From a virus (lineage: Duplodnaviria > Heunggongvirae > Uroviricota > Caudoviricetes), in IMG/VR virus record IMGVR_UViG_2778261696_000006: DNA of 28,988 nucleotides; one strand, written 5' to 3'. Below are positions 1,247 to 9,471 of the stretch, in pieces. Numbering within the stretch: the first letter of the stretch is position 1; every line of letters begins with the position of its first letter. The notes beneath the pieces are model-generated. The model ran no database searches, had not been told where the DNA came from, and saw only the letters and a list, made by a program, of their open reading frames with translations. The position numbers and the translations under genes were made by a program.

Positions 1247-1585
1247 TTAATTACAAAGGGCTGTAGCGGCATCAATCACCGGTGAAATTGAAATTTTAAC
1301 GCCGTCATACTCAGGGTCATCCTTCCATACGTCATCTAAGTTAGACCCCTCCAGCTTTCCTGATTTAACAGCATCTACCGCCATGCCATTCAGAGGATAT
1401 CTATCATCAGTTTTGATGTCATACACAAAAGCATAAGCACGGTTAACACATGATACCTTTGCCTTTTCAAAGGTTAGAGGCCACTTGTCACCATATGCAG
1501 CGCCGTCTATCTCTTTAAACTTCTCAGCGGCTATGGCTGAGGAAGAAAGTGCAATGCAGACTATCGCAAATATAAACTTTTTCAT
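1247..1585 (-). CDS. Small secreted/periplasmic protein of unknown function (moron between cI and int)
   Basis: 112-aa ORF, N-terminal signal peptide MKKFIFAIVCIALSSSAIAAE, two Cys in mature part, strong RBS AAGGAG 6 nt upstream of ATG; resembles small YebY/DUF2511-type periplasmic proteins from memory only. Confidence 0.6.
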   Translation of the reverse strand: MKKFIFAIVCIALSSSAIAAEKFKEIDGAAYGDKWPLTFEKAKVSCVNRAYAFVYDIKTDDRYPLNGMAVDAVKSGKLEGSNLDDVWKDDPEYDGVKISISPVIDAATALCN

Positions 1586-1594
1586 TACTGCTCC

Positions 1595-2440
1595 TTAAAC
1601 ATGCTTTTCCAAAGTAAAAATAACCGCACCTGATGGTGTGATATCTGAAATATTACATTCAAACTCAGCAGACTTATTTGATAACCTGACCTTTCCGCCT
1701 GGCAACCTGATTACGTCAAAAACATCGAGTGCGCCATCAATACCAATAAGCCAGCGACCATTTCCTATCTTCGAGTTAGAACTATCAACAAGCCAAGATG
1801 TGCTCACACCATCAATAAACACTAAATCATCAGTATTTGATGGAACCATAGATATATCAGGAGTCCAGCGTCCGATATCTTTGAGTTCGCCCGCCTCGAG
1901 GCGGCACTTTCTAATCGTTAAAGCATTTGCCGGTTCACCATCATTACTGTTACGCATCTGGCCTTTTCCGGTTGATAACCATTCTAACGATACGCCAGTA
2001 TCAAGGGCGCAAGTGACAACCACGTCACCGGGGAAAAAATCGCGTCTAACCCAAGTGCTTATAGTGCCGGAAGATATACCTAATAAATCTCCAAGCTCTT
2101 TTTGCAGAGTAAAACCATACGCATCGAGAATCCGACGCAGAACCGCCCTCCCTCCATTTGCCATGATTTCATCATAGAGTTGCTTACCTTTAAGCTTAGT
2201 TTTCACCACTTCAAATCTTGCATTTGCAAGCTCACCATTAATTAGCCATCGCAGGTCAGCTCCAGTATCAAGAGCACACTCAACGAAAACGTTGCTAGGG
2301 ATTACGTTTCTAGCAAGCCAGCTACTCACGTTGTTTGCATGTATGCCAAGCCTTTCGGCTAGTTCCTTTTGCTGCTTAAAGCCGTATGCAGAAAGGACAC
2401 GTTCCAATGCGGCAGACGCATTAACATCATTTTTAGACAT
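1595..2440 (-). CDS. cI: 186-type CI immunity repressor with tandemly duplicated N-terminal HTH domain
   Basis: Track ORF 1595-2629 trimmed to internal ATG at 2440 (MSKNDVNA...); two copies of motif AYGF-QKEL-LGI...W...CALDTG-L-WL-G, C-terminal region resembles 186 CI C-terminal domain (...LPGGKV...FEC...). Confidence 0.75.
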   Translation of the reverse strand: MSKNDVNASAALERVLSAYGFKQQKELAERLGIHANNVSSWLARNVIPSNVFVECALDTGADLRWLINGELANARFEVVKTKLKGKQLYDEIMANGGRAVLRRILDAYGFTLQKELGDLLGISSGTISTWVRRDFFPGDVVVTCALDTGVSLEWLSTGKGQMRNSNDGEPANALTIRKCRLEAGELKDIGRWTPDISMVPSNTDDLVFIDGVSTSWLVDSSNSKIGNGRWLIGIDGALDVFDVIRLPGGKVRLSNKSAEFECNISDITPSGAVIFTLEKHV

Positions 2441-2461
2441 ATAACACCAACAAGAATTTTG

Positions 2462-2490
2462 TTTACAACCAAAATTTAGCGATCTATATT
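2462..2490 (+). promoter_or_regulatory. Putative rightward lytic promoter (pR-like): -35 TTTACA, 17-bp spacer, -10 TATATT
   Basis: Sigma70-like hexamers in the 113-bp cI/apl intergenic region, flanked by ACACC/GGTGT inverted half-sites (2444-2448, 2491-2495, 2511-2515). Confidence 0.4.
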
Positions 2491-2543
2491 GGTGTTCACC
2501 GACCAAGATGCACACCACTGCACTACATTTCAAACAACAGGAG

Positions 2544-2572
2544 ATAATGCGATATGTCAGATGCAAAATCAA
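2544..2572 (-). promoter_or_regulatory. Putative leftward lysogenic promoter (pL-like), convergent with pR
   Basis: On minus strand TTGATT (2567-2572) -17 bp- CATTAT (2544-2549); would give face-to-face transcription with the pR candidate as described for 186. Confidence 0.25.
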
Positions 2573-2925
2573 TCTCGACGCACGACTCGCAAAACTCACA
2601 AAATCAAACTGTGCTGCTAGATCCAACACAGTTTGATGCCATCGTTACCGCCATGCTGCCAGCTCTACAGACAATGATTCGCTCCGCTATGTCAGACACG
2701 ATGACTGTGAAAGACTTCGCCGCTACTCGCGGTGTTAGCGAGCGTCTGGTCTGGCAATGGCTCGATGAGGGAGTCCTTCTCAAAGCTCCGACCAAAGACT
2801 TTTCCAACAAAGAGGAAGCTGCTAAACGAAGCCGAACCCTCGTAAATGTAAAAGCATGGCGCGATAAGCTGACTCAACAAGCGATTGATTGTCGCTACAT
2901 CGACCAGCGCACCGCTCTTAACTGA
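2554..2925 (+). CDS. Apl/Cox-like HTH protein (putative excisionase and switch regulator); start uncertain
   Basis: 123-aa ORF, RBS AGGAG 9 nt upstream, HTH-like segment TVKDFAATRGVSERLVWQWLDEGVL; first gene of rightward early operon, position equivalent to 186 apl / P2 cox. Confidence 0.5.
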   Translation: MSDAKSISTHDSQNSQNQTVLLDPTQFDAIVTAMLPALQTMIRSAMSDTMTVKDFAATRGVSERLVWQWLDEGVLLKAPTKDFSNKEEAAKRSRTLVNVKAWRDKLTQQAIDCRYIDQRTALN

Positions 2926-2957
2926 ATTTGATTATGCAAGTTAGAGGGAATTTAACC

Positions 2958-3467
2958 ATGTTTGATTTTCAGGTTTCCAAACATCCCCACTATGACGAAG
3001 CATGCCGCATTTTCGCACAGCGTCACAACATGGCGAAGCTGGCCGAGCGTGCAGGTATGAACGTTCAAACGTTACGTAACAAGCTCAACCCGGAACAGCC
3101 TCACCAGTTCACGCCGCCTGAATTGTGGCTGCTGACTGACCTGACCGAAGACTCAACCCTCATTGATGGTTTTTTAGCGCAGATTCACTGCCTACCATGC
3201 GTGCCGGTTAATGAGTTGGCTAAAGACAAATTGCAGTCTTATGTCATGCGCGCAATGCGTGAACTCGGCGAACTGGCGAGCGGCGCGGTATCTGATGAAC
3301 GTCTGACCACTGCCCGTAAGCACAACATGATTGAAAGCGTTAACTCCGGCATTCGCATGTTGTCATTGTCGGCTCTGGCGCTGCATGCACGTCTGCAGAC
3401 TAATCCAGCTATGTCGAGCGTGGTCGATACCATGAGCGGTATTGGCGCATCGTTTGGTCTGATTTGA
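2958..3467 (+). CDS. cII: 186-type CII regulatory protein
   Basis: Track ORF trimmed to ATG at 2958 (MFDFQVSKHPHYDEACR...), matches remembered 186 CII N-terminus and length (169 aa); RBS AGAGGGA upstream. Confidence 0.8.
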   Translation: MFDFQVSKHPHYDEACRIFAQRHNMAKLAERAGMNVQTLRNKLNPEQPHQFTPPELWLLTDLTEDSTLIDGFLAQIHCLPCVPVNELAKDKLQSYVMRAMRELGELASGAVSDERLTTARKHNMIESVNSGIRMLSLSALALHARLQTNPAMSSVVDTMSGIGASFGLI

Positions 3468-3468
3468 G

Positions 3469-3675
3469 GTGCGTATGCTGAAAAGTGAACCGTCATTCGC
3501 ATCTCTGCTCGTTAAGCAAAGCCCCGGCATGCACTACGGCCACGGCTGGATCGCAGGTAAGGACGGCAAGCGCTGGCACCCGAGCCACTCGCAGGCTGAT
3601 TTACTGGCTGGCCTCTCTACTCAAAAGCGGGGGGGATCATGGCTATCGAAGCTGTTTCCGCGACTGTTCCGCTAA
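3469..3675 (+). CDS. Fil-like small protein (possible host cell-division inhibitor); start GTG 3469 or ATG 3475
   Basis: 68-aa ORF directly following cII stop (translational coupling), motif SPGMHYGHGWIAGKDGKRW; position equals 186 fil. Confidence 0.45.
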   Translation: MRMLKSEPSFASLLVKQSPGMHYGHGWIAGKDGKRWHPSHSQADLLAGLSTQKRGGSWLSKLFPRLFR

Positions 3676-3977
3676 AAGCGGGTGAACGTCTGGCCGGTCT
3701 CAATCATGTTGCCGAATTGCGCGCGAGATATTGGGGCGATAGCTGGAAAGAGGTTGAACGTTTTGTCGATGATATGCGCAATAAACGTGACCCACAATTT
3801 GAAGAAAATAATCGGGCGCTGGCCGCTATTTTCTTTCTGGCAAAAATACCGGCGGCTCGTCATGAACTCGAATTAAGTGAGCTGACTACTGACGAGAAAA
3901 AGGCGCTTATTACAGCGATGAATCATTTTCGTGCAGTAGTGAGCTTATTTCCCAAACGGCTAACCATGCCGAATTAA
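3639..3977 (+). CDS. Hypothetical early protein (position of 186 dhr-region genes)
   Basis: 112-aa ORF with ATG and G-rich RBS, overlaps preceding gene by 37 nt in another frame. Confidence 0.5.
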   Translation: MAIEAVSATVPLKAGERLAGLNHVAELRARYWGDSWKEVERFVDDMRNKRDPQFEENNRALAAIFFLAKIPAARHELELSELTTDEKKALITAMNHFRAVVSLFPKRLTMPN

Positions 3978-4044
3978 TCCAAACAGAAATTTAATGGCGT
4001 AAACCCGCCGGGCATCTTATTGCCCGAAATCAGGAGAGTTAATT

Positions 4045-4272
4045 ATGCGTAATACCGAAATCCGTAGTTTTAACACTGATAGCGATGCGCTGGCCGTATT
4101 GCTGACCGATGCAAAAAAAGAAGAGCGTAAAGACCGCGCGCTCGCTGTTTCCATCCGCCTTGAGGCGCTGGCTATCCATATTACCAGAGAGGGAATGAGC
4201 GGCACCGAAGCTGCCGAACTGCTGCGCCGTGAAGCAACCCGCTTTGAGAATGAATCACAGGAGCTGCACTAA
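4045..4272 (+). CDS. Hypothetical small early protein
   Basis: 75-aa ORF, RBS AGGAG 8 nt upstream of ATG, TAATG overlap with next gene. Confidence 0.55.
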   Translation: MRNTEIRSFNTDSDALAVLLTDAKKEERKDRALAVSIRLEALAIHITREGMSGTEAAELLRREATRFENESQELH

Positions 4273-4493
4273 TGGCCGACGCAATGGATTTAGCACAACT
4301 GCGCGAGCAGGAAGACCGCGAACGCCACATCAGCAACGCACGCACCCGTATCGCTGCACCTTCCCGTTTTCTTTGCGATGAATGTGACGCACCAATCCCG
4401 GAAGCTCGCCGCATTGCGATTCCGGGCGTGGCTTTTTGCGTAACCTGCCAGCAAATCGCAGAGCTAAAAAACAAACACTATCGGGGGGTATAA
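4272..4493 (+). CDS. TraR/DksA-family C4 zinc-finger protein
   Basis: 73 aa with C-x2-C-x17-C-x2-C (CDEC...CVTC) characteristic of TraR/DksA-type zinc fingers; lies immediately upstream of replication gene. Confidence 0.7.
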   Translation: MADAMDLAQLREQEDRERHISNARTRIAAPSRFLCDECDAPIPEARRIAIPGVAFCVTCQQIAELKNKHYRGV

Positions 4494-4494
4494 A

Positions 4495-6717
4495 TTGGCT
4501 GTTCAATTCGCTTATCCGTGGAACGTTCCACGGTCGGCAATCTCCAGCCCATACCTTACTTATGCGCAACAGCATCGCCGCGACCGTATGTTCGCGGCTT
4601 TGCTGCATGCAAAAAAGGTGCTTTCTCTCCAGCCCGACTGCGTGCGGTTAGATGTTTATCGCACTGCTGCGGTGCTGGAGCAAAATCAGGGTAGTCAACG
4701 AGCCAATGCATTTTTAATCAGCTTCTGCAAAAAGGCATTGCCGCGTCTTGAACTGGTCGCAAAAAAATACGAATGCGCTGGTATCAACAGCAAGGTATCA
4801 ACCGCTGTTTTTGGAAGTCATTTTGATACTCAGCAAATGCAATATCTGTCGTCACGCATGGTTAATATGGTCGCCCGATATAACCGTCTCCCGGACATGT
4901 CGCGCGCTGATGTTGACCTGTTGGCCGCTGATATTGCTAATTTCATTCGTGGTGAACTTGCCAACATTAATGACCACGGATTCGGCGAGCTTAAAACGCT
5001 GTACACCTGGTATATTCGTGCTGGCTTTATTTCCCTCCAATTTAACGTTATCCCACCACATTGGGAGCGGGTTGAAAAAAAATATGTCGGTGCGGATGAA
5101 ATCGCACCGGCTATCGCCAAAATGTTTAACGATGGGTGGTGGCGCGGTCGTTTGCGCCGTGTTGCAGCTACGTGGCGCGAACACCTGCAAATTGCAGTCG
5201 GCAACGTCAGTAAGAAAAAAAACACTTACGCGAGTAAAAACTGCGTGACTGACTGGCGTGAACAAAAGCGCCGCACTCGTGAATTTCTCAAAGGTCTGGA
5301 TCTCGAAGACGAAGACGGCAACCGTATCAGCCTGATTGAAAAATATGATGGCTCAGTTGCTAACCCTGCGATTCGCCGCTGTGAGCTCATGACCCGCATT
5401 CGTGGGTTTGAAAACATCTGTAATGAGCTCGGTTATGTCGGTGAGTTTTACACTCTAACCGCGCCGTCAAAATATCACGCCACGACTAAAGCCGGTTACC
5501 GTAACAGCAAATGGAGCGGTGCCAGCCCGGCTGACACGCAAAACTATCTAACCGGTATCTGGGCGCGTATCCGTGCCAAACTACATCGGGAAGATGTCCG
5601 TATTTTCGGTATTCGTGTCGCCGAGCCTCATCACGACGGCACTCCACACTGGCACATGCTGATGTTCATGCTGCCGGAAGATGTTGAATATGTTCGCTCC
5701 ATCGTCCGTAAATACGCATGGAAAGAAGACCGCCACGAACTGAAAAGCGATAAATCCAAAAAAGCACGTTTCCACGCCGAGTCCATTGACCCGGAGAAAG
5801 GCAGTGCAACCGGCTATGTTGCTAAATACATCTCAAAAAATATCGACGGTTATGCTCTCGATGGTGAAACCGATGATGAAAGCGGTGAGCTGCTGAAAGA
5901 GACAGCCCCCGCCGTTTCAGCATGGGCTGCGCGCTGGCACATCCGTCAGTTTCAGTTTATTGGTGGTGCGCCGGTGACGGTTTACCGTGAGTTGCGTCGC
6001 CTCGCTGATACCGAAACCGCGCGCGGTCTGAGCGTTGAGTTTGCCGCCGTCCATGATGCCGCCGACGCTGGTGACTGGGCTGGTTATGTTAATGCTCAGG
6101 GTGGGCCGTTTGTCCGTCGCGATGATTTACAGGTGCGCACACTGTATGAACCGCGTACCGAGCTTAATCAGTACGGTGAGGAAACGGTATGTATTAAGGG
6201 GGTCTACGATTCCTCCATAGGTGCAGGGAGTCCGATTTTAACCCGGCTCACTCAGTGGAAGATTGTTCCGAAGCGTGCTGTTGATTTGGCCGTTGACCTT
6301 CAGGACGGCAAAGCCGTCCCTCGGAGTTCTGTCAATAACTGTACGGGAAGCGAAAGCGATCCACCGATACTGGATTTAACAAAACCACTGAGTCGGCGTG
6401 AAAGACGAGAATTGACCAACCGACTCAGGAAGCAAAAGCCAGCAGCACGGCGAAAACTCATCCACGGAACGGATGAGCAAAACGCAGCTATAGCTAAAAC
6501 TATCGACGAGATACATCTGACAACCGGCATTAATATCAGCCGGGGCGAAGCCCTGCACCTGATGGCCGGTGGTAAAAGTTGTTTTGATGGTAAATGGCTA
6601 CGCGGAACGGCCAAAGGAGAAATATTTTCCGCAGCACCATCGCATGAGGCTAAAGCTCGGAAAATCCTTAATCGTGTTGCGGCGATGGCTGAAGCATCAA
6701 AACCAATACATGAGTAA
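4495..6717 (+). CDS. A: Replication initiation protein A (rolling-circle HUH endonuclease); start is TTG 4495 or a downstream ATG
   Basis: 740-aa ORF containing HUH motif (TPHWHMLMF) and catalytic tyrosine motif YVAKYISKNIDGYALDG as in P2/186 gpA. Confidence 0.9.
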   Translation: MAVQFAYPWNVPRSAISSPYLTYAQQHRRDRMFAALLHAKKVLSLQPDCVRLDVYRTAAVLEQNQGSQRANAFLISFCKKALPRLELVAKKYECAGINSKVSTAVFGSHFDTQQMQYLSSRMVNMVARYNRLPDMSRADVDLLAADIANFIRGELANINDHGFGELKTLYTWYIRAGFISLQFNVIPPHWERVEKKYVGADEIAPAIAKMFNDGWWRGRLRRVAATWREHLQIAVGNVSKKKNTYASKNCVTDWREQKRRTREFLKGLDLEDEDGNRISLIEKYDGSVANPAIRRCELMTRIRGFENICNELGYVGEFYTLTAPSKYHATTKAGYRNSKWSGASPADTQNYLTGIWARIRAKLHREDVRIFGIRVAEPHHDGTPHWHMLMFMLPEDVEYVRSIVRKYAWKEDRHELKSDKSKKARFHAESIDPEKGSATGYVAKYISKNIDGYALDGETDDESGELLKETAPAVSAWAARWHIRQFQFIGGAPVTVYRELRRLADTETARGLSVEFAAVHDAADAGDWAGYVNAQGGPFVRRDDLQVRTLYEPRTELNQYGEETVCIKGVYDSSIGAGSPILTRLTQWKIVPKRAVDLAVDLQDGKAVPRSSVNNCTGSESDPPILDLTKPLSRRERRELTNRLRKQKPAARRKLIHGTDEQNAAIAKTIDEIHLTTGINISRGEALHLMAGGKSCFDGKWLRGTAKGEIFSAAPSHEAKARKILNRVAAMAEASKPIHE

Positions 6718-6830: not shown

Positions 6831-7013
6831 ATGGTTGGCGAACATTTCAGCCGAACGCAGCAAAAGTGGGCTTGTGTGCAATTTATTGCCGAGGTATCTC
6901 TGATTGCAAACTGCAAGCCATCAGACTTAAAGCTCGCGCTCACTCTCATTGCAGACCTAGCAAACAGCGAAAATAACGAAACCGAAGATGATAATTTTTA
7001 TAAGGCTGATTAG
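6831..7013 (+). CDS. LexA-controlled small protein, candidate Tum-type antirepressor
   Basis: 60-aa ORF with RBS GGGAGGG, immediately downstream of LexA box; positional analogy to the 186 p95/tum operon; no sequence-level confirmation possible here. Confidence 0.4.
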   Translation: MVGEHFSRTQQKWACVQFIAEVSLIANCKPSDLKLALTLIADLANSENNETEDDNFYKAD

Positions 7014-7016
7014 ATT

Positions 7017-7247
7017 ATGAGAATCAATATCACGTTGGATAAAGAGCAAAAATTAGGGCAACAGATCATTGATGCTTTTCAGAATGAAATAACACATCGA
7101 GTACAATGCGTTTTTCCTGCAACAAAAGTTAACGTTAAGAAAGGGTCAATGACTGGTGTAGAGGCTATCGGATTCGATAAAGAGGCGGACAGAGAAACAT
7201 TAGGCAGCATATTACAAGAGATTTGGGAAGACGATAGCTGGCGTTAA
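7017..7247 (+). CDS. dinI: DinI-family protein
   Basis: 76 aa, MRINITLDKEQ...LQEIWEDDSW resembles DinI family (MRIEV...ILQETWE); second gene of the LexA-box operon. Confidence 0.75.
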   Translation: MRINITLDKEQKLGQQIIDAFQNEITHRVQCVFPATKVNVKKGSMTGVEAIGFDKEADRETLGSILQEIWEDDSWR

Positions 7248-7265
7248 ACAGAATAACCGTGCTGG

Positions 7266-7329
7266 CGCAAAAACTAGCTTTTTGCGTCGGCGGGGTTGAG
7301 TAACGAGCCCACGAGGCTTAAGTCCTGCC
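7266..7329 (+). repeat. Structured repeat copy R1 (hairpin plus GGCGGGGTTGA...AACGAGC...ACGAGGC...CCTGCC)
   Basis: Hairpin CGCAAAAA-CTAGC-TTTTTGCG followed by conserved GC-rich core; about 80 percent identical to copy at 7672-7733. Confidence 0.6.
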
Positions 7330-7446
7330 TTTCAAAATTTCTCAATGTGCTATTGATGACACCCCCATGATTAATGAGGCATGACCTGAGATGGTTTTAT
7401 AGTGGCGTTTTGACGGCACTGATTAAAATTCATTGAGGGTGATAAT

Positions 7447-7656
7447 ATGCATCGACTACCAGGTGAAATTCCGCAGCACAAAACTAAATGCATCAAACTG
7501 ATGGCCATCGTTCATCGTCTGCAGCAGATAATGGTCAATGAGAATTTGACACCCGCCGAGCTGGTCGGGTGTGCCGAAATAGTCAGGGATAATTACGGCA
7601 AGCTGGATAGCATCAGCAAGCCGACACATTACTCACCGCCACCACGTCGACCATAG
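7447..7656 (+). CDS. Orphan 69-aa protein flanked by R1/R2 repeats
   Basis: ATG with RBS GAGG about 8 nt upstream; no recognisable motif; lies in the A-to-cos accessory interval. Confidence 0.45.
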   Translation: MHRLPGEIPQHKTKCIKLMAIVHRLQQIMVNENLTPAELVGCAEIVRDNYGKLDSISKPTHYSPPPRRP

Positions 7657-7671
7657 ATAACGCCGCCGGAG

Positions 7672-7733
7672 CTGAAACTCGCTTTCAGGTCTGGCGGGGT
7701 TGAACAACGAGCTACGCGAGGCGTTAGCCCGCC
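7672..7733 (+). repeat. Structured repeat copy R2 (hairpin plus GGCGGGGTTGA...AACGAGC...ACGCGAGGC...CCCGCC)
   Basis: Hairpin CTGAAA-CTCGC-TTTCAG then conserved core; outer GGCGGG/CCCGCC can pair (R1 keeps pairing via a G-U). Confidence 0.6.
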
Positions 7734-7938
7734 CCGTAGAGACCGCTCCAAACCGTCGCACTGAATGCCGGTTTTTTTATGTTATTTTCCCGCGATTTCC
7801 CCGTTTTTTAGCCGTGCATGCATCAGGTGCATGGTTTTGCATGCGTCAGTCTTGCCCCTTCTGTCCGTGCGCCGCCAGAGCTGGCGCGGATCCAGAGTTG
7901 TCATGCAACTGCATTAAAACCGACCCATAAAGCGGGCA

Positions 7939-7957
7939 GGCGTGGCGGGGAAAGCAT
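7939..7957 (+). other. cos: cos cohesive-end site (19-nt, 186-type)
   Basis: GGCGTGGCGGGGAAAGCAT matches the remembered 186 cohesive end (P2: GGCGAGGCGGGGAAAGCAC); the following sequence TGCGCGCCAGCGGTGGTGCG...CGTCGTGACGGCGCT resembles the P2 left end as I recall it; location between A-side accessory genes and 3' end of Q. Confidence 0.65.
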
Positions 7958-8161
7958 TGCGCGCCAGCGGTGGTGCGTATTATTAAAAATTATCGTCTGA
8001 GAACGTCGTGACGGCGCTGTAGTGGCCGGGTGTGATCGTGGGCGCGTGGTGCGTCTGTGGCGTGGTGCTAAAGGATGGGATCAGTTGCACAATTTTACGG
8101 TTTCGCTTTGGCTAATATCCATATTGAGACTTTATGTTCCCCACAACAGTTGGAGGCTTTA

Positions 8162-8386
8162 ATGGATAACTATCATATTACAAAAGATGGCGATAAGTGG
8201 AAGTTGCAAAAAGAGGGCAATGATCGCCCTAGCAAGACCGCGACCACAAAGGCCGAGCTGATTAAAACAACATCTGAGTTTATGTCGAACAAAACAGGCT
8301 CGGTCAAAATTCACAAGGAAGATGGGAAAATTCAGGAAGAACGCACTTATCAGAGAAAAGATGATCCTAAAAAGTCTAAAGGCTAA
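8162..8386 (+). CDS. DUF2188-like small protein (moron between cos and portal gene)
   Basis: 74 aa, RBS GGAGG 5 nt upstream of ATG; motif YHITKDGDKWKLQKEG...KAELIKTTSEF...VKIHKEDGKIQEERTY resembles DUF2188 family from memory. Confidence 0.55.
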   Translation: MDNYHITKDGDKWKLQKEGNDRPSKTATTKAELIKTTSEFMSNKTGSVKIHKEDGKIQEERTYQRKDDPKKSKG

Positions 8387-8392
8387 CATAGC

Positions 8393-8415
8393 AAAAGCCG
8401 CCAAAATGGCGGCTT
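8393..8415. terminator. Stem-loop between convergent genes (possible bidirectional terminator)
   Basis: AAGCCGCC-AAAAT-GGCGGCTT 8-bp stem between DUF2188-like gene (+) and Q (-); no strong U-tract on either strand. Confidence 0.35.
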
Positions 8416-8424
8416 AAAAGGTGA

Positions 8425-9471
8425 TTATTCCGGGTTGTCGAGTGTGTACTCTTTGAACCTGATGACCTCCATACCGAGCCAGTCGTTTACCTCCCTGAAC
8501 CTATCCTGCAGGGGTGACAGCTCATTACGCACAAATACCTTTGCCACCTTCTCAACGTCACCGAGTGAACCGATATTCTCGGGCTTGCCGCCCATGAGCT
8601 GGAACGGCACGCGGTGCGCGTCCATCAGGTCGGCGGCGCTGGCTTTCTTAATGTTGAAAAAGTCATCCTTTGTGGCGACCTCGCTCAGTGGCACGATTTT
8701 GATGCCGTCCGGTTTTCCGCCGGGGGCGTAGAAAAACAGGTTCTTAAAGTTGCCGAGTCCCTTCGAGTTACGCATCGCCTCGCGCAGCGATTCGACGTCG
8801 GTCGCACTTTGCGCCGGGTCAGTCACATACATGATGTAGCCTGCGTGCGCGCCGTTCTGATAATACTTGCGGCGGAACAGCGTCGCGGATTCATTCAGCC
8901 AAGCGGAATTAAGCGCGCTGAGATATTCCGGCAGACCGTAAATCTCCTGATTAATGTCGGGCTCCAGCAGGTGAAACACGGTATCAGGCGCGAACTCGTG
9001 CGGCTGGGTGAAGTTTTCCACAAACCAGAAAATCGAATCGTCGACTCCGCGTCGGGTGTATTTGGCTGGCGAGGCCAGCAGTTTGATTAACTGGCCGGTG
9101 ACGCTGTGGCGCTGCTCAAGAAAGGCGTTACCGAATACCAGATAATCGAGCGCAAAGCGGCTGAAATCCTGACGGGATAACAACGGGTGCGGAATGTAGG
9201 TGCTCGCGAGCACGTTACGCTTAACATAAATTGGCGAGCTGTGATGCACGGCAGAGCGCAGGCTCTTTGCCAGCCCTGAGAAGCTGACCGGCGGCTCGTA
9301 CCATTTGCCGTTACTGATGCACTCGACGTAATCCAGAATGTCGCGCTTATCGAGTACCGGCACCGGCTCGCCGAAGGTGAACGCTGTCGTTTTTGGCGGT
9401 GCGCTGGCGGTCAGTTGTTGTGGTTTGCTGGCCTTTTGTGCGTTGGCTTTACGGGATTTTTGTTTACCCAT
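8425..9471 (-). CDS. Q: Portal protein (P2 gpQ)
   Basis: 348 aa, size and position match P2 Q; stop/start overlap with P upstream on same strand. Confidence 0.9.
   Translation of the reverse strand: MGKQKSRKANAQKASKPQQLTASAPPKTTAFTFGEPVPVLDKRDILDYVECISNGKWYEPPVSFSGLAKSLRSAVHHSSPIYVKRNVLASTYIPHPLLSRQDFSRFALDYLVFGNAFLEQRHSVTGQLIKLLASPAKYTRRGVDDSIFWFVENFTQPHEFAPDTVFHLLEPDINQEIYGLPEYLSALNSAWLNESATLFRRKYYQNGAHAGYIMYVTDPAQSATDVESLREAMRNSKGLGNFKNLFFYAPGGKPDGIKIVPLSEVATKDDFFNIKKASAADLMDAHRVPFQLMGGKPENIGSLGDVEKVAKVFVRNELSPLQDRFREVNDWLGMEVIRFKEYTLDNPE

What the first reader, a model, noticed from the sequence alone, without database searches (positions are those of the whole stretch)
8075..8424. DUF2188-like gene inserted between cos and the portal gene
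The sequence right of cos resembles the P2 left end for about 110 bp; in P2 as I recall the 3' end of Q follows shortly after. Here roughly 350 bp extra lie between, holding a 74-aa gene with a strong GGAGG RBS and a stem-loop after it, convergent with Q. The protein resembles DUF2188 proteins from memory. This is a discrete moron at a site where insertions must not disturb packaging signals.
Basis: partly seen in the sequence, partly recalled or inferred. Interest (0 to 1): 0.55.

Follow-up and report, generated by a model that had tools for sequence, protein, structure and literature searches.

The report
DUF2188 accessory gene beside phage cos

Summary
The window is a 186-like E. coli prophage. 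cos is at 7939-7957 and the portal gene at 8425-9471 (-). About 325 bp (c. 8068-8392, 41% G+C against 53% for the window) lie where P2, 186 and a close sibling prophage have only about 20 bp.

The gene is 8162-8386 (74 aa). It matches Pfam DUF2188 over the full profile (66 bits, cut-off 22). The 8075 start used by RefSeq is an artefact. The stem-loop (8395-8415) is the conserved portal-operon terminator (tW/tQ), not a new element.

The cassette is not unique. It occurs in 11 of 5426 complete E. coli genomes. It lies next to cos in many P2-like prophages and in P4-like satellites. Rousset et al. 2022 list this gene arrangement in their P2 hotspot tables. In sibling prophages the same cos-portal interval is empty (64 of 78), holds DUF2188 (7) or holds defence-type cargo (7).

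Alleles are under strong purifying selection. A CRP-like site with class II promoter geometry is conserved upstream, but this is inferred only.

No solved or characterised structure matches, so function is unknown. My best guess is a lysogen-expressed accessory protein that binds nucleic acid or another conserved target. Interest is low to moderate.

The parts
6831..7656 (+). Cargo on the other (gpA) side of cos, in the classical P2 hotspot: hypothetical 60 aa (6831-7013), DinI-like 76 aa (7017-7247), hypothetical 69 aa (7447-7656).
   Evidence: ORFs. RefSeq annotation of the identical EC12 prophage. Pfam DinI E = 1.7e-17. The same set of proteins plus DUF2188 is listed as one P2-hotspot arrangement in Rousset 2022 supplement file 6.
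7939..7957 (.). cos cohesive-end sequence GGCGTGGCGGGGAAAGCAT.
   Evidence: Identical to the annotated cos of phage 186. One to two mismatches to P2 cosL.
7958..8067 (.). Right flank of cos and G/T-rich spacer, homologous to 186, P2 and the empty-site prophage CX21. It has a 21-bp deletion relative to them.
   Evidence: Alignments. 60% G+C.
8068..8392 (+). Foreign cassette that is absent from P2, 186 and CX21.
   Evidence: Alignments. 41% G+C against 53% for the window. No flanking direct or inverted repeats. No DNA match in INPHARED phages.
8076..8091 (+). CRP-like site TGGGA-N6-GCACA (8 of 10 core positions), centre at 8083.5. This is a putative activator site of the cassette promoter.
   Evidence: It is the only match to TGNGA-N7-CACA in the window. 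The half-sites are the conserved columns in 18 diverged alleles. The best CRP-like match lies 78-81 nt before the ATG in all enteric cos-adjacent alleles. Function is inferred, not shown.
8113..8118 (+). -10-like hexamer TAATAT. It implies a start site near 8125 and places the CRP-like centre at -41.5.
   Evidence: Sequence. The TAa.aT column block is conserved. The geometry follows from coordinates and established knowledge of class II CRP promoters. A canonical -35 is absent.
8152..8156 (+). Ribosome-binding site GGAGG, 5 nt before the ATG.
   Evidence: Sequence. Conserved as tgGAG in the alleles. The 5' leader is predicted to be unstructured.
8162..8386 (+). DUF2188 gene: 74 aa, pI 9.5, net charge about +5.
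   Evidence: Pfam PF09954 at 66 bits. phrog_3220. PADLOC PDC-S16. 323 homologues, almost all 74 aa. pN about 0.08 against pS about 0.7. AF2 model with pLDDT 85. pI and charge.
8395..8415 (-). Hairpin AAGCCGCCA-AAA-TGGCGGCTT. It is the homologue of tW (186) and tQ (P2), the terminator of the portal/terminase operon. It probably also ends the convergent DUF2188 transcript.
   Evidence: Annotated terminators. Alignments. Folding at -15 and -16.5 kcal/mol, with UUUU only on the minus strand. Inverted repeat I2.
8425..9471 (-). Portal gene (186 W / P2 Q homologue), convergent with the DUF2188 gene.

Best explanation
The segment c. 8068-8392 is a self-contained single-gene accessory cassette (a moron). 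It lies in the cos-proximal variable region of a 186-like prophage, between the right flank of cos and the pre-existing portal-operon terminator.

It encodes a 74-aa, basic, stand-alone DUF2188 protein with a predicted beta-beta-beta-alpha-beta-beta fold. The protein plays no part in virion assembly: P2, 186 and most relatives lack it.

Most likely it is transcribed on its own, independently of the phage early and late circuits. The candidate promoter has the geometry of a class II cAMP-CRP promoter, so the gene would be made in the lysogen, especially when carbon is limiting. Its transcript would end at the shared hairpin.

My best guess for the product is a small oligomerising protein that binds nucleic acid (possibly DNA ends) or another universally conserved target. 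It would benefit the lysogen, either by exclusion of other phages or by stress survival.

Shown here:
- the insert and its boundaries
- family membership
- the correct start codon
- purifying selection
- recurrence next to cos in helper phages and satellites
- use of the same interval for defence-type cargo

Inferred only: the promoter and CRP control, expression in the lysogen, and any biochemical activity.
For: Insert and boundaries.

Foreign composition and no transposition scars.

DUF2188 membership. phrog_3220. PADLOC defence-candidate PDC-S16, E = 9e-15.

Start codon and selection:
- Homologues are almost all 74 aa and 60-86% identical across many phyla.
- The upstream extension carries stop codons in other alleles, and pN is about 0.08 against pS of about 0.7.

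Promoter:
- The conserved columns upstream are tG.GA-N6-CACA followed by TAa.aT.
- Their distance to the ATG is fixed while their distance to cos varies.
- It is the only such site in the window.

Dispensable for morphogenesis: 64 of 78 related prophages have the empty 174-198 nt interval. No isolated phage in INPHARED carries the gene.

Hotspot context:
- The gpA-gpQ interval is the published P2 defence hotspot, and this arrangement is tabulated there.
- Sibling prophages carry GmrSD_N+HEPN (PADLOC NsnA / PD-T4-2_A) or DndB-like modules in the same cos-portal interval.
- P4-like satellites carry the cassette beside an AAA_21+HNH pair.
- Homologues sit in integrase-linked islands next to SIR2, DpnII-like and toxin-antitoxin genes.

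Hint of nucleic-acid binding: pI 9.5. ligD lies immediately upstream and co-directional in 12 Pseudomonas species.

Hint of oligomerisation: tandem two- and three-repeat forms exist. The closest fold is the dimer-forming UPF0339/DUF1508 domain.
Against: No experiment or characterised homologue supports any activity.
- PDB sequence and fold searches give nothing significant.
- NCBIfam has no model.
- PDC-S16 is only a computational candidate, and I found no paper on it.

The sigma-70 consensus scan finds no + strand promoter. The CRP-like core is 8 of 10 in this allele. One such match per window is expected by chance, so the promoter rests on conservation and geometry alone.

Very high conservation across phyla is unusual for defence or counter-defence proteins, which tend to diverge quickly.

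The ligD linkage is confined to one genus and may reflect shared ancestry. Neighbours elsewhere are not consistent.
Confidence: 0.55

Rival explanations
1. Counter-defence gene serving the phage or satellite. A small protein made early after DNA entry would neutralise a host immune system, for example by sequestering a nucleotide signal or blocking a nuclease. It would be kept next to cos because that end of the DNA enters first, or because helper and satellite exchange it there.
For: - It is small, single-domain, without enzymatic motifs, and has a strong RBS.
- DUF2188 genes occur beside CBASS, cyclase/TIR and Thoeris loci in the literature.
- In satellites it sits beside an AAA_21+HNH pair.
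Against: - 60-86% identity across phyla and conserved chromosomal synteny with ligD are atypical for anti-defence proteins.
- A CRP-type promoter suggests host-physiology control rather than immediate-early expression.
- I could not establish which P2/186 DNA end enters first.
Confidence: 0.15
2. The arrangement is ancestral rather than inserted. P2-like phages originally had DUF2188 between cos and the portal terminator, and P2, 186 and most relatives lost it by deletion. This is a rival about history only, not about function.
For: - The cassette is found with portals from 100% down to about 50% identity and in satellites. Allele divergence is saturated at synonymous sites.
- The hairpin follows the gene at the same spacing even in satellites that have no portal.
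- There are no insertion scars.
Against: - 64 of 78 relatives have a tight, conserved 174-198 nt empty interval.
- The cassette has 41% G+C against 53% for the phage.
- Prophages with 97-99% identical portals carry alleles only 78-89% identical in protein. This points to swapping by recombination rather than vertical descent.
Confidence: 0.2
3. Packaging accessory factor. A small basic DNA-binding protein encoded beside cos would bind the cos region or the cohesive ends and assist or protect them.
For: - Constant proximity to cos in helpers and satellites.
- Basic protein.
- ligD linkage in Pseudomonas, which hints at DNA ends.
Against: - Most P2/186-like phages package without it.
- Close homologues occur in chromosomal and island contexts with no cos or portal, including other phyla.
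- The conserved upstream motif keeps register with the gene, not with cos.
Confidence: 0.05
4. Chance ORF or decaying remnant with no function.
For: No function is known. No isolated phage carries it.
Against: - Full-length family match.
- 323 close homologues of identical length.
- pN/pS of about 0.1.
- Conserved RBS.
- Confident fold prediction.
Confidence: 0.02

Closest known systems
Cargo genes of the P2 cos-proximal (gpA-gpQ) hotspot, e.g. old and tin of P2 (Rousset et al. 2022, PMC9122126)
   Same: It lies inside the same gpA-gpQ interval. Its presence varies among otherwise near-identical prophages, and it is dispensable for phage growth. This arrangement (hypothetical + hypothetical + DUF2188 + DinI) is listed in that paper's supplementary table.
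   Different: It lies on the portal side of cos, whereas old and tin lie on the gpA side. It is a single 74-aa protein with no recognised defence domain. No anti-phage activity has been reported.
Pfam DUF2188 (PF09954) / PHROG 3220 / PADLOC candidate PDC-S16
   Same: Full-length sequence membership. Typical stand-alone size.
   Different: These families carry no function, so membership explains nothing mechanistically. PDC-S16 is an untested candidate.
Classical phage morons (e.g. lambda bor and lom; HK97/HK022 morons as defined by Hendrix and colleagues; from my own knowledge)
   Same: An extra gene between two genes that are adjacent in relatives, with different base composition and apparently its own expression signals.
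   Different: The terminator is borrowed from the neighbouring late operon. The promoter is inferred only. The cassette is shared with satellites of the phage.
UPF0339 / DUF1508 (E. coli YegP, Shewanella SO_3888, PDB 2k49)
Class II cAMP-CRP promoters (e.g. galP1; from my own knowledge)
   Same: A TGnGA-N6-nCACA site centred 29.5 nt upstream of the first base of the -10 hexamer, i.e. at -41.5, with no -35 element.
   Different: CRP binding and the transcription start site are untested. The core match is 8 of 10 in this allele.

Membership tests
Pfam DUF2188 (PF09954) | Score above the curated gathering threshold over the whole domain model | tested here: met
   66.3 bits against a cut-off of 22, E = 2.7e-18, profile positions 1-62 of 62.
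Pfam DUF2188 (PF09954) | Small stand-alone protein of about 60-80 aa | tested here: met
   74 aa. 323 homologues, nearly all 74 aa. Cluster representatives are mostly 73-80 aa, with a few tandem forms.
Phage moron | Lies between two features that are adjacent in related phages | tested here: met
   P2, 186 and CX21, and 64 of 78 related prophages, have cos and the portal terminator 174-198 nt apart with nothing between them.
Phage moron | Base composition different from the surrounding phage genome | tested here: met
   41% G+C against 53% for the window and 60% for the adjacent spacer.
Phage moron | Own promoter | tested here: inconclusive
   No sigma-70 consensus hit on the + strand. A conserved CRP-like site plus -10 hexamer at fixed distance from the ATG.
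Phage moron | Own terminator | tested here: inconclusive
   The only hairpin (8395-8415) is the tW/tQ homologue. Its U-run is on the portal strand in this allele. The same hairpin follows the gene in satellites that lack a portal.
Phage moron | Expressed from the repressed prophage | not testable with these tools
   Needs RNA-seq or reporter assays in a lysogen.
P2 gpA-gpQ defence hotspot cargo | Located between the replication gene A and the portal gene Q | tested here: met
   Replication endonuclease at 4588-6717 and portal at 8425-9471 (with the window offset). Hotspot definition. The arrangement is listed.
P2 gpA-gpQ defence hotspot cargo | Content of the locus varies among close relatives | tested here: met
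   The cos-portal interval is empty in 64, holds DUF2188 in 7 and other two-gene modules in 7 of 78 loci.
P2 gpA-gpQ defence hotspot cargo | Confers resistance to phage infection | not testable with these tools
   No report found. Needs plating assays.
PADLOC PDC-S16 (defence candidate) | Match to the candidate's HMM | tested here: met
   PDLC04941 with E = 9.3e-15 and PDLC04942 with E = 8.4e-14, both near full length.
Class II CRP-dependent promoter | CRP consensus TGTGA-N6-TCACA | tested here: inconclusive
   8 of 10 in the window (TGGGA-N6-GCACA). 7 to 9 of 10 in other alleles. The half-site columns are conserved and the spacer is variable. One match per window is expected by chance.
Class II CRP-dependent promoter | Site centred at -41.5 relative to the transcription start | tested here: inconclusive
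   The centre at 8083.5 lies 29.5 nt before the -10-like hexamer at 8113-8118. This gives -41.5 only if transcription starts near 8125, and the start site is unknown.
Class II CRP-dependent promoter | Transcription depends on cAMP-CRP | not testable with these tools
   Needs crp/cya mutants, EMSA or footprinting.
UPF0339 / DUF1508 (YegP) | Sequence match to the family | tested here: not met

The most novel reading that the evidence does not exclude
The unit 'cos - CRP-type promoter - DUF2188 - GC hairpin' is a conserved module. P2-like helper phages and their P4-like satellites would both keep it at the one locus they share. Its highly conserved 8.6-kDa product would be a new kind of single-protein effector in conflicts between mobile elements. 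It could be a DNA-end-binding protein, which would fit the ligD synteny in Pseudomonas. Or it could bind a nucleotide signal, which would fit the CBASS, Thoeris and cyclase neighbourhoods. Either way it would be switched on by the host's starvation signal.
Probability: 0.15. Interest if true: 0.55.

Novelty: already known. Interest (0 to 1): 0.27.

Why it matters
As it stands, the finding matters little. The gene is annotated in RefSeq as a DUF2188 protein. It lies in a published hotspot, and its arrangement is already tabulated.

Its modest value is as a clean test case.
- DUF2188 is a widespread, strongly conserved small protein with no known function, repeatedly seen near immune systems.
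- Here it is a one-gene cassette with defined boundaries and natural empty-site controls.
- There is a testable regulatory prediction: class II CRP control.
- It shows that the P2 hotspot extends to the portal side of cos.
- It shows that helper phages and their satellites carry the same cos-linked cassette.

Tried and rejected
Searches that found nothing useful:
- The sigma-70 and terminator consensus scan found no + strand promoter and did not flag the hairpin.
- Rfam on 7600-8500 gave only a chance miRNA hit.
- PDB sequence search gave only chance L26 hits.
- Foldseek against PDB and BFVD gave nothing at E <= 0.001 and no characterised protein. The afdb50 library was unavailable.
- NCBIfam has no model.
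- No paper mentions PDC-S16.
- The insert DNA and the protein have no P2-like match among isolated phages. The only hit is a Streptococcus satellite at 33% identity.

Papers I could not obtain: Burroughs & Aravind 2020, the source of the 'DUF2188 linked to defence' statement, could not be read. I know it only through Lau et al..

Literature on which P2/186 DNA end is packaged last or injected first was not found. The 'early-entry gene' idea therefore stays untested.

Ideas considered and rejected:
- The 103-aa ORF from ATG 8075. It is rejected because other alleles have in-frame stops there. That ATG arises from a TGAGA to TGGGA change inside the CRP-like half-site.
- An Ogr/B/Delta-type late promoter (TGT-N12-ACA near -55; from my own knowledge). 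By inspection of 8040-8118 there is no such motif. The conserved dyad spans 16 nt, not 18, and is centred at about -41.5.
- Transposon or integron-cassette origin. No direct or inverted repeats bracket 8068-8392.
- Recent helper-satellite exchange. The P4-like alleles are only 70-79% identical in DNA to any P2-like allele in the sample.
- A conserved operon partner. Neighbours differ between loci, apart from ligD in Pseudomonas.

Full report
**What the window is.** The 601 bases around the finding are 100% identical to a prophage of E. coli EC12, integrated next to yfiB. The RefSeq gene order there is:
- integrase, CI, CII, replication endonuclease
- three small genes, one of them DinI-like
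- a 'DUF2188 domain-containing protein'
- portal, terminase, capsid and tail genes

The closest characterised phage is 186 (Eganvirus). Its 19-nt cos is identical to window 7939-7957, and its portal W is 94% identical.

**The observation.** In 186 the annotated order is cos 1-19, terminator tW 164-187, portal W from 196. In P2 it is cosL 1-19, tQ 160-181, Q from 187. In the window the portal stop codon is 486 nt from the first base of cos. Alignments with 186, P2, two Eganvirus-like phages and the closely related E. coli CX21 prophage show the following:
- Homology runs from cos to about 8067, with a 21-bp deletion.
- It resumes at the hairpin AAGCCGCCA-AAA-TGGCGGCTT (8395-8415), which is tW/tQ.

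About 325 bp (c. 8068-8392) therefore replace some 20 bp, a net gain of about 290-300 bp. The segment is 41% G+C, against 53% for the window and 60% for the adjacent spacer. No direct or inverted repeats bracket it. It has no DNA match in 50,697 phage records.

**The gene.** The ORF from ATG 8162 (74 aa, stop at 8384-8386) has GGAGG five bases upstream. It matches Pfam DUF2188 end to end: 66.3 bits against a cut-off of 22. It also matches PHROG 3220 (unknown function) and the PADLOC candidate PDC-S16 (E = 9e-15).

RefSeq starts the gene at ATG 8075 (103 aa). That start is an artefact.
- Of 323 homologues, almost all are exactly 74 aa.
- In other alleles the in-frame upstream region contains stop codons.
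- The window's ATG arises from a TGAGA to TGGGA difference in a conserved non-coding motif.

Between alleles, pN is about 0.08-0.13 while pS is about 0.65-0.9, which is saturated. The protein is thus under strong purifying selection. Homologues 60-86% identical occur in Enterobacterales, Pseudomonas, Vibrio, Aeromonas, Desulfobacterota, Chlorobiales and candidate-phyla MAGs. A profile search of 1.84 billion cluster representatives finds 1134 members. Most are 73-80 aa, with a few two- or three-repeat tandem forms.

**Structure.** AlphaFold2 gives a confident model (pLDDT 85) with strand-strand-strand-helix-strand-strand order and a disordered lysine-rich tail. The protein is basic, with pI 9.5 and net charge about +5.
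- Foldseek against PDB and BFVD finds nothing at E <= 0.001, and the top BFVD hits are uncharacterised.
- DUF1508 is itself a stress-associated, dimer-forming domain of unknown function.

Structure therefore gives no mechanism.

**Expression signals.** A consensus scan finds no sigma-70 promoter on the + strand. I aligned the 100 nt upstream of the ATG from 18 diverged alleles. The conserved columns are tG.GA-N6-CACaA, then about 21 nt, then TAa.aT, then the RBS.

In the window these are TGGGA-TCAGTT-GCACA (8076-8091) and TAATAT (8113-8118). The first resembles the CRP consensus TGTGA-N6-TCACA: 8 of 10 here and 9 of 10 in the Lelliottia-type alleles. Its centre is 29.5 nt before the -10 hexamer, i.e. 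at -41.5 if transcription starts near 8125. That is the class II CRP geometry (established knowledge; not tested here).

- The best CRP-like match lies 78-81 nt before the ATG in all enteric cos-adjacent alleles.
- Its distance from cos varies from about 55 to about 140 nt. The motif therefore belongs to the gene, not to the packaging signal.
- It is the only match to the degenerate pattern in the 29-kb window, although one match is expected by chance.

The predicted 5' leader is unstructured. The hairpin has its U-run on the portal strand in this allele, but a better T-run on the + strand in other alleles. It probably terminates both convergent transcripts. All of this is inference.

**Distribution.**
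- Eleven of 5426 complete E. coli genomes carry the cassette at this site: seven nearly identical and four with an allele 80% identical in DNA, with the same boundaries.
- In IMG/VR, 28 of 37 loci encoding a relative have a P2-type portal convergent 40-52 bp downstream. More distant prophages (portal about 50-57% identical) have a D12 adenine methylase in between.
- A P2-type cos lies 125-300 bp upstream of the ATG in 32 loci (a 33rd row there, at 5 mismatches, is probably a chance match).
- Two of these loci are P4-like satellites (Psu, Ogr/Delta, integrase). In them the order is psu - cos - DUF2188 - hairpin - HNH - AAA_21 - integrase. This matches the 'AAA_21 + DUF2188 + HNH' entries in the P4 hotspot table of Rousset et al. 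2022.
- Satellite and helper alleles are 70-79% identical in DNA, so there is no evidence of recent exchange.
- Prophages with 97-99% identical portals carry alleles only 78-89% identical. This indicates allele swapping by recombination.

**What else sits at this site.** I took the 80 IMG/VR loci with the most similar portals; 78 have a recognisable cos.
- 64 have the empty 174-198 nt interval.
- 7 have DUF2188 (399-507 nt).
- 7 have 1.3-2.5 kb of other cargo.

The other cargo includes GmrSD_N plus HEPN (matching PADLOC NsnA and PD-T4-2_A), a DndB-like pair, and unknown two-gene modules. The portal side of cos is thus a minor cargo site of the published gpA-gpQ hotspot. The exact arrangement in this window ('hypothetical + hypothetical + DUF2188 + DinI', with the same protein accessions as EC12 for the three non-DUF2188 genes) is in that paper's supplementary table.

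**Other contexts.**
- In 12 Pseudomonas species the gene follows ligD directly and co-directionally.
- In another Pseudomonas it lies in an integrase/P4-type primase island with a SIR2 protein and a DpnII-like protein.
- In Vibrio it lies beside an integrase and DUF3606.
- In Reinekea it lies beside RelE/HTH.
- In P. chlororaphis it lies between a PAAR protein and a NYN protein.
- The literature only mentions DUF2188 in passing, as a neighbour of CBASS, of CapH/CapP-controlled cyclase operons and of Thoeris islands, and as 'predicted' defence-linked.

**Interpretation.** Well supported:
- This is a self-contained, horizontally mobile, single-gene cassette.
- It is dispensable for virion production.
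- It is maintained by selection.
- It sits in a locus that related elements use for defence cargo.

Plausible but unproven: autonomous, CRP-activated transcription in the lysogen.

The biochemical role is unknown. I favour a small oligomerising protein that binds nucleic acid, or some other universally conserved partner, and benefits the lysogen. The grounds are basic charge, extreme conservation, ligD synteny, tandem forms and hotspot context.

Alternatives are a counter-defence factor (about 0.15), a cos/packaging accessory (about 0.05) and a functionless remnant (about 0.02, effectively excluded). Whether the cassette was gained here or lost from P2 and 186 is open. Low G+C, the dominance of the tight empty site and incongruent allele divergence favour gain and swapping.

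**Verdict.** The feature is an already annotated member of a known family in a known hotspot. The new points are modest:
- the corrected start codon
- the borrowed terminator
- the conserved CRP-like promoter architecture
- the shared cos-linked cassette in helpers and satellites
- the use of the cos-portal interval as a cargo site

Noticed in passing
window 8075-8161: RefSeq/PGAP annotates the DUF2188 gene of the identical EC12 prophage as 103 aa starting at ATG 8075. Other alleles have in-frame stops there, and homologues are 74 aa. The long start is an annotation artefact created by a single base difference inside the conserved upstream motif.
   Followed up: yes
L114 4047-5746; L118 4047-5367; L153; L177 3981-5813; L179 4035-6504; L186 4017-6135; L187 1295-3108: In 7 of 78 related prophages the cos-portal interval holds 1.3-2.5 kb of other cargo. 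Examples are GmrSD_N + HEPN (PADLOC NsnA / PD-T4-2_A), a DndB-like pair, and two-gene modules with no family match (one with a membrane protein). The portal side of cos is a cargo site in its own right.
   Followed up: partly
L021-L023, L026, L028, L032, L034, L042, L049, L050, L055, L060 (about 2400-5225 in each): In 12 Pseudomonas species the DUF2188 gene lies immediately downstream of ligD (NHEJ DNA ligase D, 67-77% identical among species; identities are to L021's own LigD) and is co-directional with it. This is a conserved synteny that hints at a DNA-end-related role.
   Followed up: partly
L074 and L078, 4760-5270: P4-like satellites (Psu, Ogr/Delta, integrase) carry the same cos - promoter - DUF2188 - hairpin module next to a convergent HNH + AAA_21 (Septu-like) pair. 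The hairpin follows the gene even though no portal gene is present.
   Followed up: yes
L098 3718-4479 (also L059, L099-L102): Distant P2-like prophages (portal about 50-57% identical) have a D12-class N6-adenine DNA methylase between the DUF2188 gene and the portal gene.
   Followed up: partly
window 1247-1585 (-): By RefSeq annotation of the identical prophage, a DUF2511 gene sits between the integrase and the CI repressor. This is another small cargo gene at a second minor hotspot of P2-like phages.
   Followed up: no
window 7817-7833 (+) and 7923-7937 (-): Two terminator-like hairpins lie just left of cos. The first may end rightward transcription from the DinI-like/tum region before it reaches cos and the DUF2188 cassette.
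   Followed up: no
window 8000-8067; L006 2515-2715: The G/T-rich spacer right of cos is conserved in 186, P2 and siblings but is missing in several DUF2188-bearing phages, where the cassette starts about 55 nt from cos. In CX21 a 66-aa 'hypothetical protein' is annotated across this spacer, which is probably spurious.
   Followed up: partly
P0121 (154 aa), P0126 (326 aa), P0168 (211 aa): Some family members are tandem arrays of two or three DUF2188 domains. This suggests the single-domain protein works as an oligomer, as described for the structurally closest DUF1508 domain.
   Followed up: no
L108 5001-5415: In Vibrio fluvialis the gene is followed 14 bp later by a 58-aa DUF3606 gene and then an integrase. 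A 9 of 10 CRP-like site lies 66 nt upstream of the ATG.
   Followed up: no
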